From assembly GCF_009914755.1 (NCBI RefSeq), contig NC_060928.1: a stretch of 64,000 nucleotides of DNA; one strand, 5' to 3'. Made by a program: the position numbers and the translations under genes. Below are positions 100 through 3,000 of the stretch, piece after piece. Every line of letters begins with the position of its first letter. Position 1 is the first letter of the stretch. The stretch comes from the human T2T-CHM13v2.0 reference genome, Homo sapiens. The notes below the pieces were generated by a model. That model was not told the DNA's origin. It saw only the letters and a program-made list of their open reading frames with translations, and did not search any database.

Positions 100-3000
100 A
101 TGACAGGATCAAATTCACACATAACAATATTAACTTTAAATGTAAATGGACTAGATGCTCCAATTAAAAGACACAGACTGGCAAATTGGATAAAGAGTCA
201 AGACCCAACAGTGTGCTGTATTCAGGAAACCCATCTCACGTGCAGAGACACACATAGGCTCAAAATAAAAGGATGGAGGAAGATCTACCAAGCCAATGGA
301 AAACAAAAAAAGGCAGGGGTTGTAATCCTAGTCTCTGATAAAACAGATTTTAAACCAACAAAGATGAAAAGAGACAAAGAAGGCCATTACATAATGGTAA
401 AGTGATCAATTCAACAAGAAGAGCTAACTATCCTAAATATATATGCACCCAATACAGGAGCACCCAGATTCATAAAGCAAGTCCTGAGTGACCTACAAAG
501 AGACTTAGACTCCCACACATTAATAATGGGAGACTTTAACACCCCACTGTCAACATTAGACAGATCAACGAGACAGAAGGTCAACAAGGATACCCAGGAA
601 TTGAACTCAGCTCTGCACCAAGCGGACCTAATAGACATCTACAGAACTCACCACCCCTAATCAACAGAATATACATTTTTTCAGCACCACACCACACCTA
701 CTCCAAAATTGACCATATACTTGGAAGTAAAGCTGTCCTCAGCAAATGTAAAAGAACAGAAATTATAACAAACTATCTCTCAGACCACAGTGCAATCAAA
801 CTAGAACTCAGGATTAAGAATCTCACTCAAAACCACTCAACTACATGGAAACTGAACAACCTGCTCCTGAATGACTACTGGGTACATAACGAAATGAAGG
901 CAGAAATAAAGATGTTCTTTGAAACCAACGAGAACAAAGACACAACATACCAGAATCTCTGGGATGCATTCAAAGCAGTGTGTAGAGGGAAATTTATAGC
1001 ACTAAATGCCCACAAGAGAAAGCAGGAAAGATCCAAAATTGACACCCTAACATCACAATTAAAACAACTAGAAAAGCAAGAGCAAACACATTCAAAAGCT
1101 AGCAGAAGGCAAGAAATAACTAAAATCAGAGCAGAACTGAAGGAAATAGAGACACAAAAAACCCTTCAAAAAATTAATGAATCCAGGAGCTGGTTTTTTG
1201 AAAGGATCAACAAAATTGATAGACCGCTAGCAAGACTAATAAAGAAAAAAAGAGAGAAGAACCAAATAGACACAATAAAAAATGATAAAGGGGATATCAC
1301 CACCGATCCCACAGAAATACAAACTACCGTCAGAGAATACTACAAACACCTCTACGCAAATAAACTAGAAAATCTAGAAGAAATGGATAAATTCCTCGAC
1401 ACATACACTCTCCCAAGACTAAACCAGGAAGAAGTTGAATCTCTGAATAGACCAATAACAGGAGCTGAAATTGTGGCAATAATCAATAGTTTACCAACCA
1501 AAAATAGTCAAGGACCAGATGGAGTCACAGCCGAATTCTACCAGAGGTACAAGGAGGAACTGGTACCATTCCTTCTGAAACTATTCCAATCAATAGAAAA
1601 AGAGGGAATCCTCCCTAACTCATTTTATGAGGCCAGCATCATTCTGATACCAAAGCCGGGCAGAGACACAACCAAAAAAGAGAATTTTAGACCAATATCC
1701 TTGATGAACATTGATGCAAAAATCCTCAATAAAATACTGGCAAACCGAATCCAGCAGCACATCAAAAAGCTTATCCACCATGATCAAGTGGGCTTCATCC
1801 CTGGGATGCAAGGCTGGTTCAATATACGCAAATCAATAAATGTAATCCAGCATATAAACAGAGCCAAAGACAAAAACCACATGATTATCTCAATAGATGC
1901 AGGAAAAGCCTTTGACAAAATTCAACAACCCTTCATGCTAAAAACTCTCAATAAATTAGGTATTGATGGGACGTATTTCAAAATAATAAGAGCTATCTAT
2001 GACAAACCCACAGCCAATATCATACTGAATGGGCAAAAACTGGAAGCATTCCCTTTGAAAACTGGCACAAGACAGGGATGCCCTCTCTCACCACTCCTAT
2101 TCAACATAGTGTTGGAAGTTCTGGCCAGGGCAATTAGGCAGGAGAAGGAAATAAACGGTATTCAATTAGGAACAGAGGAAGTCAAATTGTCCCTGTTTGC
2201 AGATGACATGATTGTATATCTAGAAAACCCCATTGTCTTAGCCCAGAATCTCCTTAAGCTGATAAGCAACTTCAGCAAAGTCTCAGGATACAAAACCAAT
2301 GTGCAAAAATCACAAGCATTCTTATACACCAACAACAGACAAACAGCCAAATAATGAGTGAACTCCCATTCACAATTGCTTCAAAGAGAATAAAATACCT
2401 AGGAATCCAATTTACAAGGGATGTGAAGAGTCAGAAGCTTATGTTGTTTATGCGGGGAAACGCCATATCGGGGGCACCGATTATTAGGGGAACTACAAAC
2501 CACTGCTCAAAGAAATAAAAGAGGATACAAACAAATGGAAGAACATTCCATGCTCATGGGTAGGAAGAATCAATATCGTGAAAATGGCCATACTGCCCAA
2601 GGTAATTTACAGATTCAATGCCATCCCCATCAAGCTACCAATGACTTTCTTCACAGAATTGGAAAAAACTACTTTAAAGTTCATATGGAACCAAAAAAGA
2701 GCCCGCATCGCCAAGTCAATCCTAAGCCAAAAGAACAAAGCTGGAGGCATCACACTACCTAACTTCAAACTATACTACAAGGCTACAGTAACCAAAACAG
2801 CATGTTACTGGTACCAAAACAGAGATGTAGATCAATGGAACAGAACAGAGCCCTCAGAAATAACGCCGCATATCTACAACTATCTGATCTTTGACAAACC
2901 TGACAAAAACAAGCAATGGGGAAAGGATTCCCTATTTAATAAATGGTGCTGGGAAAACTGGCTAGCCATATGTAGAAAGCTGAAACTGGATCCCTTCCTT

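What the first reader, a model, noticed from the sequence alone, without database searches (positions are those of the whole stretch)
2426..2495. Recent 70-bp mitochondrial COX1 insertion (NUMT) inside L1 ORF2, with microhomology at both ends
Seen in sequence: the L1 consensus GATGTGAAG-gacctcttcaagga-GAACTACAAA is interrupted. Its 14 middle bases are gone and 61 foreign bases take their place. Read on the minus strand in the mitochondrial code, the insert is COX1 [22 protein letters not shown] (ATA=Met, TGA=Trp). The junctions share AAG (left) and GAACTA (right) between L1 and mtDNA, and there is no TSD or poly(A). All four CpGs are intact, and as far as I recall it matches the human rCRS without mismatch. 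Inference: mtDNA was captured during microhomology-mediated double-strand-break repair, after the L1 inserted, so it is probably human-specific and possibly polymorphic. Being short and inside a repeat, it is easily masked as L1 and missed. It could also generate false heteroplasmy calls near m.6150-6215.
Basis: partly seen in the sequence, partly recalled or inferred. Interest (0 to 1): 0.85.

Follow-up and report, generated by a model that had tools for sequence, protein, structure and literature searches.

The report
Short mitochondrial COX1 fragment inside L1
A 61-70 base piece of the mitochondrial COX1 gene was patched into a broken L1 repeat in an intron of MAPK10; this is an ordinary, well-understood kind of nuclear mitochondrial insertion with no sign of function.

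Summary
At window 2429-2489, 61 non-L1 bases replace 14 L1 ORF2 bases. Read on the minus strand in the vertebrate mitochondrial code, they give 22 of 22 residues of cytochrome c oxidase subunit 1, residues 83-104. The junctions share AAG on the left and GAACTA on the right between L1 and mitochondrial-type sequence, judged from other nuclear mitochondrial copies. No L1 base is duplicated and there is no poly(A). Only this locus holds the 70-mer in full; the best other full-span copy is 93% identical. It is therefore a short NUMT captured by microhomology-mediated end joining after a young L1PA element had inserted. This class is described in print: microhomology at both fusion points, 8 of 90 numts, 7 of them with deletions (PMC2567098). 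I could not test three claims: identity to human mtDNA, absence from apes, and polymorphism. No mtDNA or ape sequence was reachable and the supplementary tables were closed. Two side claims fail: the insert is not masked as L1 in NCBI's file, and a copy identical to mtDNA cannot mimic heteroplasmy. A T2T-CHM13 catalogue with no length minimum exists (PMC13179385). Low interest.

The parts
2429..2489 (-). Core of the NUMT: 61 bases found in no L1 copy. The COX1 sense strand is the window's minus strand, the same direction as MAPK10 transcription. The stretch holds four CpGs.
   Evidence: 22 of 22 residues match COX1 residues 83-104 (E about 3e-10).
2426..2428 (.). Left junction microhomology AAG, shared by L1 (GATGTGAAG) and mitochondrial-type sequence (..GGTAAG|AGTCAG, as preserved in the chr22 NUMT, L004). 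The surrounding L1 bases also resemble the mitochondrial flank imperfectly: 44 of 46 positions with one gap in the BLAST alignment.
2490..2495 (.). Right junction microhomology GAACTA, shared by L1 (GGAGAACTACAAACC) and mitochondrial-type sequence (GGGGAACTA|GYCAGTTGCC in the chr5, chr7, chr1 and chr2 NUMT fossils).
1..2428 (+). 5' part of the host L1 (ORF2 region). It runs off the window start. It already carries frame breaks of its own: the open frame 540-2354 ends before the NUMT.
   Evidence: hub mask table (1-652, 656-2431 masked).
2490..4187 (+). 3' part of the host L1: the rest of ORF2, the 3' UTR and an 11-base A-tail at 4177-4187. The best other genomic copies are 97-98% identical over 2496-3300 and 95-97% over 3900-4190, so this is a young L1PA-type element.

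Best explanation
This is a NUMT, a nuclear copy of a mitochondrial DNA fragment. It covers COX1 codons 83-104, at most 70 bases (2426-2495) and at least 61 (2429-2489). If MT-CO1 starts at m.5904, which I recall and did not check, this is about m.6148-6217.

Steps of the proposed history:
1. A young L1PA element was already sitting, antisense, in a MAPK10 intron about 20 kb from the nearest annotated exon in the window.
2. A chromosomal double-strand break occurred inside it.
3. The ends were resected and 14 L1 bases were lost.
4. A free mtDNA fragment was used as filler and joined through annealing at short homologies: 3 bases on the left and 6 on the right. Six bases point to microhomology-mediated or alternative end joining rather than blunt classical NHEJ.

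Shown here: the anatomy, the COX1 origin, that the locus is single-copy, and the order L1 first, NUMT second. Inferred: the repair pathway and the lack of function.

The insert is inert. Age: it is younger than the host L1. I estimate about 0.8 that it arose on the human lineage after the split from chimpanzee. That estimate rests on recalled identity to human mtDNA, not on a test.
For: 1. Foreign bases replace L1 bases. 61 bases stand where 14 L1 bases are missing; 8 of 8 close L1 relatives are uninterrupted at the site and 6 of 8 read the same 14 bases. Three in-window L1 copies agree.

2. COX1 identity. 22 of 22 residues match in the mitochondrial code, with ATA read as Met three times and TGA as Trp once. 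The match to PDB COX1 chains has E about 3e-10.

3. The sequence comes from a mitochondrial lineage under selection. Across six older NUMT fossils, 48 of 63 differences from the insert lie at third codon positions: chr5 5 of 5, chr17 9 of 11, chr6 9 of 10, chr7 10 of 13, chr1 7 of 9, chr2 8 of 15. Unconstrained decay would give one third. An independent short chr22 NUMT is identical over its 37 overlapping bases.

4. Single locus. The own-genome search with the 70-mer gave 8 matches from 8 scored candidates. Only the chr4 locus covers 1-70 at 100%. The next full-span copy, on chr5, is 93% identical.

5. Junctions. AAG and GAACTA are shared between L1 and mitochondrial-type flanks. No target-site duplication, no poly(A) and no untemplated bases are present.

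6. The pattern is a described class. In Hazkani-Covo & Covo 2008 (PMC2567098, sections 6 and 9 read; section 7 seen in passages only), 84 of 152 fusion points had microhomology of 1-7 bp. 8 of 90 numts were 'microhomology x microhomology', 7 of them with deletions. Their Figure 2E legend describes a case with 19 bases lost.
Against: - No true mitochondrial genome could be compared, so the mitochondrial origin rests on protein identity and on nuclear fossils of mtDNA.
- The mitochondrial flanks that define the microhomologies are inferred from other NUMTs, not from mtDNA itself.
- The left microhomology depends on the source mtDNA having read ..TAAG as the chr22 NUMT does. The chr5 fossil reads GAG there.
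- A 14-base loss is larger than usual for numts: 49 of 90 numt insertions lost no bases, and 1-2 base losses were the more frequent kind among the rest (PMC2567098, section 9). It is still within the described range.
- The own-genome search scores only the best candidates and withheld stretches read N. A near-identical nuclear donor outside its view is therefore not strictly excluded.
Confidence: 0.93

Rival explanations
1. The NUMT is real but old. It would be shared with chimpanzee and perhaps gorilla, fixed in humans, and neither human-specific nor polymorphic.
For: - Nothing run here dates the insert after the human-chimpanzee split.
- The host L1 gives only an upper bound. Its best relatives are 97-98% identical (40 of 5227 candidates scored) and 95-97% at the 3' end. 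That fits an element several to more than ten million years old (my inference).
- Ricchetti et al. 2004 (PMC515365, section 8) found 7 of the 14 NUMTs shared with chimpanzee at 94-96% identity to human mtDNA. [quoted passage not shown]
- In PMC13179385 all 774 fixed NUMTs are in T2T-CHM13, out of 918 reference NUMTs.
Against: - If the recalled mismatch-free match to the human reference mtDNA holds over 66-70 bases, an insertion before the split would be expected to show a few third-position differences.
- In Ricchetti et al. no chimpanzee-shared NUMT is reported above 96% identity (section 8).
- The insert differs from the older chr5 fossil at 5 of 68 positions. It therefore samples a different, and I infer later, state of the mitochondrial lineage.
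Confidence: 0.2
2. Secondary copy: the 61-70 bases were copied from an existing nuclear NUMT, by template switching or by capture of nuclear DNA, and not from mtDNA.
For: - Several nuclear COX1 NUMTs cover the same stretch (chr5, chr17, chr6, chr7, chr1, chr2; 42 matches to the chr5 NUMT query).
- Hazkani-Covo & Covo found 18 of 90 lineage-specific numts nearer to another nuclear copy than to mtDNA.
Against: - No other nuclear copy matches the full span above 93%.
- The 5 differences from the best one (chr5) are all at third codon positions. That is what mitochondrial evolution produces and not what copying followed by nuclear decay produces.
- The chr22 NUMT is identical but overlaps only 37 bases and ends inside the insert, so it cannot be the template.
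- No donor-flank bases came along with the insert.
Confidence: 0.03
3. Assembly artefact, or an insertion private to the CHM13 cell line.
For: Only one assembly was seen here. No reads and no second human genome could be examined.
Against: - The junctions have the precise anatomy of end-joining repair: microhomology at both ends, a clean 14-base loss and no chimeric flank. A mis-join of reads would not produce this inside an otherwise collinear L1.
- Short NUMTs of this size with high identity to mtDNA are common among confirmed human loci. About half of the human-specific ones are 100 bp or less (PMC515365, section 8).
Confidence: 0.02

Closest known systems
Lineage-specific primate numts of the 'microhomology x microhomology, with deletion' class (Hazkani-Covo & Covo 2008, PMC2567098, Table 1 and Figure 2E legend)
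   Same: A mtDNA fragment used as filler at a chromosomal break. Microhomology within the reported 1-7 bp range at both fusion points. Chromosomal bases lost. No target-site duplication. Non-coding target.
   Different: Whether this locus is one of their 35 human-specific numts is unknown, because their Table S1 could not be opened. The pre-insertion state here was inferred from paralogous L1 copies and not from an ape orthologue.
Short, high-identity human NUMTs in introns (Ricchetti, Tekaia & Dujon 2004, PMC515365)
   Same: Under 100 bp and inside an intron of a known gene. In that study 22 of 28 human-specific NUMTs lie in introns, and about half of the NUMTs found only in humans are 100 bp or less.
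   Different: Their Tables 1, 3 and S1 are not in the text held, so I could not see whether a chromosome 4 NUMT of this size was among the 42 loci they tested by PCR in humans and chimpanzees.
Reference NUMTs of T2T-CHM13 (PMC13179385, 2026: 918 reference NUMTs, of which 774 fixed)
   Same: Same assembly. Detection was by BLASTN against primate mtDNAs at E below 1e-3, identity 60% or more, with no length minimum. The fixed NUMTs reported start at 38 bp. A perfect 66-70 base match scores about 127 bits (the self-match), which by my arithmetic clears that threshold by many orders of magnitude.
   Different: I could not open their Supplementary Data 3 to confirm the entry or read its allele frequency.
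The chr22 short NUMT (locus L004, G000:C22:36345424-36345460 and a few bases beyond)
   Same: An independent capture of an overlapping COX1 stretch, about 45-47 bases, identical to the chr4 insert over the 37 shared bases.
   Different: Different breakpoints on both sides, a different chromosome, and a target that is not L1.

Membership tests
NUMT (nuclear sequence of mitochondrial origin) | Sequence derived from the mitochondrial genome | tested here: met
   22 of 22 COX1 residues in the vertebrate mitochondrial code. DNA matches to 7 other nuclear COX1 copies at 78-100% identity. 48 of 63 differences from six of them fall at third codon positions. Direct alignment to mtDNA was not possible.
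NUMT (nuclear sequence of mitochondrial origin) | Embedded in nuclear chromosomal DNA, with nuclear sequence on both sides | tested here: met
   L1 ORF2 sequence lies on both sides and is collinear with 8 of 8 L1 relatives. The window is chr4, in an intron of MAPK10 (hub annotation).
NUMT (nuclear sequence of mitochondrial origin) | Inserted by end joining at a break: no target-site duplication of the retrotransposon type, no poly(A), and microhomology or blunt junctions | tested here: met
   3-base and 6-base microhomologies, 14 bases lost, no duplicated L1 base and no A-run.
Human-specific NUMT | Empty orthologous site in chimpanzee and other apes | not testable with these tools
   No ape genome is held; one search states that the genome has no relatives here.
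Human-specific NUMT | Identity to human mtDNA higher than to other primate mtDNAs | not testable with these tools
No mtDNA was reachable.
Polymorphic NUMT | Both filled and empty alleles present in human populations | not testable with these tools
   Only one human assembly was seen. Base rates from print: 12 of 40 human-specific numts are variable (PMC2820518), and 6 of 27 in PMC515365.

The most novel reading that the evidence does not exclude
The insert is a human-lineage NUMT that still segregates in human populations (allele frequency below 95%). It would then be a presence/absence marker in a MAPK10 intron that freezes a past mitochondrial haplotype next to a nuclear haplotype.
Probability: 0.15. 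Interest if true: 0.25.

Novelty: already known. Interest (0 to 1): 0.1.

Why it matters
It matters little. This is a clean textbook example of mtDNA used as filler in double-strand-break repair, and the host L1 supplies the pre-break sequence without any need for an ape orthologue. If it proved human-specific or polymorphic it would add one more marker to lists that already hold dozens. I found no evidence of an effect on MAPK10: the insert lies deep in an intron, about 20 kb from the nearest annotated exon in the window, inside an L1 that already has broken reading frames.

Tried and rejected
1. Obtaining a real mitochondrial genome. The genome held has 24 contigs and no mitochondrial one. 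Exact scans with the 70-base window stretch in viral contigs and genome contigs gave 0 hits each. Exact scans with the 45-base chr22 NUMT stretch in genome contigs and viral contigs also gave 0 hits each. BLAST against plasmids and phages gave no match. Identity to human mtDNA therefore stays untested.

2. Looking for the large, recent chr1 COX1 NUMT that I recalled, to use as a stand-in for modern mtDNA. It was not among the hits. I fetched the first 200 kb of contig C1 and found nothing mitochondrial-like and no N. My recalled position was probably wrong.

3. Literature look-up of the locus.
- 'NUMT' plus 'MAPK10' gave 1 paper, which was unrelated.
- Ricchetti 2004 has no mention of MAPK10, JNK3 or chromosome 4 in the text held, and its tables are not held.
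- Hazkani-Covo 2008 has no 'chr4'.
- PMC13179385 has no 'MAPK10' or 'chr4' in the main text.
- PMC6933719 mentions chromosome 4 only for a different, non-reference NUMT.
- PMC2820518 names no chr4 locus in its text.
The tables most likely to name this locus were therefore not seen: Ricchetti Table S1, Hazkani-Covo Table S1 and PMC13179385 Supplementary Data 3.

4. Earlier findings of this scan were not open to the session.

5. Chance similarity is rejected: E about 3e-10 for the peptide and 8.6e-20 for the chr5 DNA match.

6. The pattern GATGTGAAG-N(5-30)-GAACTACAAA has no exact match in the window, because the in-window L1 copies are too diverged. BLAST and alignment were used in its place.

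Full report
WHAT IS THERE

Window 2421-2500 reads ATGTG-AAG-[61 bases]-GAACTA-CAAAC. The surrounding sequence is L1 ORF2 on the plus strand.

To see what the L1 looked like before the event, I took 8 of the 39 non-self hits of an own-genome search with the 805 bases downstream of the insert. These eight are 98% identical to this L1 over that stretch. In that search 40 of 5227 candidates were scored; 26 non-self hits were listed at 98% and 13 at 97%. I fetched about 160-200 bases at the site from each. All 8 run through the site without interruption. 6 of 8 read GACCTCTTCAAGGA between ...GATGTGAAG and GAACTACAAACC..., one has a single substitution and one has a 3-base gap. Three older L1 copies within the window agree in outline.

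So the focal L1 lacks exactly 14 bases and carries 61 others in their place. No L1 base is duplicated, so there is no target-site duplication. There is no A-run and no unexplained extra base.

WHAT THE 61 BASES ARE

Translated on the minus strand from 2493 with the vertebrate mitochondrial code, the insert gives [25 protein letters not shown] is read as Met three times and TGA as Trp once. Against all PDB chains this matches residues 83-104 of cytochrome c oxidase subunit 1 at 22 of 22 positions. The matching chains include 5z62_A, 8d4t_N and 1occ_A, with E about 3e-10.

With MT-CO1 starting at m.5904, which I recall and did not check, the mitochondrial-like span is about m.6148-6217 at most and m.6154-6214 at least.

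COMPARISON WITH OTHER NUCLEAR COPIES

The own-genome search with the 70-mer returned 8 matches from 8 scored candidates:
- the locus itself, at 100% over 1-70;
- a chr5 NUMT, at 93% over 68 bases;
- a chr22 locus, at 100% over 37 bases;
- five older fossils, at 78-84%.

Across the six fossils with differences, 48 of 63 differences fall at third codon positions: chr5 5 of 5, chr17 9 of 11, chr6 9 of 10, chr7 10 of 13, chr1 7 of 9, chr2 8 of 15. Mitochondrial evolution under selection on COX1 produces this pattern; decay of nuclear copies does not. The insert is therefore a snapshot of a working mitochondrial gene taken at a different time from those fossils, and not a copy of any of them.

The chr22 locus is a separate short NUMT of about 45-47 bases with different end points. 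It cannot be the donor, but it independently confirms 37 bases of the source sequence.

JUNCTIONS

No mitochondrial genome was available, so I used the other NUMTs as stand-ins for the mitochondrial flanks.
- Left junction. The chr22 NUMT reads ...AGGGAGGTAAG|AGTCAG..., while L1 reads ...AGGGATGTGAAG|GACC.... AAG is shared. The preceding bases also resemble each other imperfectly: the BLAST alignment is 44 of 46 with one gap.
- Right junction. The chr5, chr7, chr1 and chr2 fossils read ...GG(G/A)ACTA|G(Y)CAGTTGCC..., while L1 reads ...GGAGAACTA|CAAACC.... GAACTA is shared.

By simple arithmetic, homologies of at least 3 and at least 6 bases arise by chance at about 1 in 64 and 1 in 4096 junctions.

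One caveat applies to the left junction. The chr5 fossil reads GAG and not AAG there, so the 3-base homology assumes that the source mtDNA was of the chr22 type.

MECHANISM

The anatomy is that of filler-DNA capture during end joining of a double-strand break. Hazkani-Covo & Covo 2008 (PMC2567098; sections 6 and 9 read, section 7 seen in passages only) classified 90 lineage-specific human and chimpanzee numts.
- Microhomology of 1-7 bp occurred at 84 of 152 fusion points.
- 8 of 90 numts had microhomology at both fusion points, and 7 of these had deletions.
- 41 of 90 lost chromosomal bases. 1-2 base losses were relatively frequent and larger losses less so.
- Their Figure 2E legend describes a case with microhomology at both ends and 19 bases lost.

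The present locus fits that class, at the larger end for deletion size. A 6-base homology together with resection suggests the microhomology-mediated (alternative) branch of end joining. This is my inference and was not tested.

ORDER OF EVENTS AND AGE

The NUMT came after the L1. The L1 is collinear with its relatives on both sides, and the L1-NUMT junctions occur once in the genome.

The L1 ends in an 11-base A-tail at 4177-4187. Its 3' end is 95-97% identical to the best other copies: among the 39 non-self hits, 1 is at 97%, 36 at 96% and 2 at 95%, with 40 of 2379 candidates scored. Its ORF2 part is 97-98% identical to the best other copies. I infer that it is a young L1PA-type element, several to perhaps a dozen million years old. 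That gives only an upper bound for the NUMT.

The L1 already has broken frames apart from the NUMT.

The four CpGs in the insert say little about age. By my rough estimate from the usual roughly ten-fold CpG transition rate, all four would survive 6 million years more often than not.

The strongest argument for recency is a mismatch-free match to modern human mtDNA.

Ricchetti et al. 2004 (PMC515365, section 8) bear on this in two ways.
- 24 of 27 human-specific NUMTs had more than 94% identity to human mtDNA, but 7 of the 14 NUMTs shared with chimpanzee had 94-96%. They state that identity alone is not rigorous proof of human specificity.
[quoted passage not shown] A perfect chr4 match present in the 2003 assembly would probably have been among them. 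Their tables are not in the text held.

IS IT KNOWN?

The kind is textbook. For this particular locus I found no mention in the main text of any paper I opened.

The catalogue of PMC13179385 was made on this very assembly by BLASTN at E below 1e-3 with no length minimum. It reports 918 reference NUMTs, with fixed ones from 38 bp (passages). A perfect 66-70 base match scores about 127 bits (the self-match) and would pass that threshold easily. I therefore think it almost certain that the locus is listed there with an allele frequency. The supplementary data were closed.

Base rates for polymorphism:
- 12 of 40 human-specific numts are variable (PMC2820518).
- 6 of 27 were polymorphic in PMC515365.
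- In PMC13179385, 774 of 918 reference NUMTs are fixed and 123 are pericentromeric. By my subtraction this leaves about 21 polymorphic reference NUMTs.

- 'Easily masked as L1 and missed' does not hold. The hub's mask table shows 656-2431 and 2485-3905 masked, which leaves 2432-2484 unmasked.
- 'False heteroplasmy' is implausible for a copy said to be identical to mtDNA and shorter than a sequencing read.

VERDICT

The core interpretation is supported: a COX1 NUMT, captured after the L1 had inserted, by end joining with microhomology at both ends. Human specificity and polymorphism remain open. The finding is ordinary and very probably already catalogued.

Noticed in passing
L004:1501-1547 (G000:C22, about 36345424-36345470, minus strand): A separate short NUMT of about 45-47 bases on chr22 covers an overlapping COX1 stretch. 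It is identical to the chr4 insert over the 37 shared bases but has different end points on both sides, and it lies about 130 bases from an Alu-like poly(A) tail. It is an independent capture of nearly the same mitochondrial segment.
   Followed up: partly
own genome; G000:C1:1-200000 (L021-L040): The large, recent chr1 NUMT spanning COX1 that I recalled did not appear among the own-genome hits. It is also not in the first 200 kb of contig C1, where no mitochondrial-like match and no N were found. Either my recalled position is wrong or the search does not reach it.
   Followed up: partly
L002/L009 (G000:C5, about 100561606-100562306) and G000:C5:100038878-100039489: In this orientation the chr5 COX1 NUMT appears to end shortly after the stretch homologous to the insert. 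The sequence just beyond it (query 690-1301) recurs at 99% identity about 520 kb away on the same chromosome. This looks like a duplicated flank.
   Followed up: no
window 540-3968: The host L1's ORF2 is broken into at least four open stretches in different frames (540-2354, 2488-3288, 3186-3968 and others). The element was therefore non-functional independently of the 47-base net insertion.
   Followed up: partly
window 4262-4300: A short CA-rich, (CA)n-like tract lies just beyond the L1 poly(A) tail.
   Followed up: no
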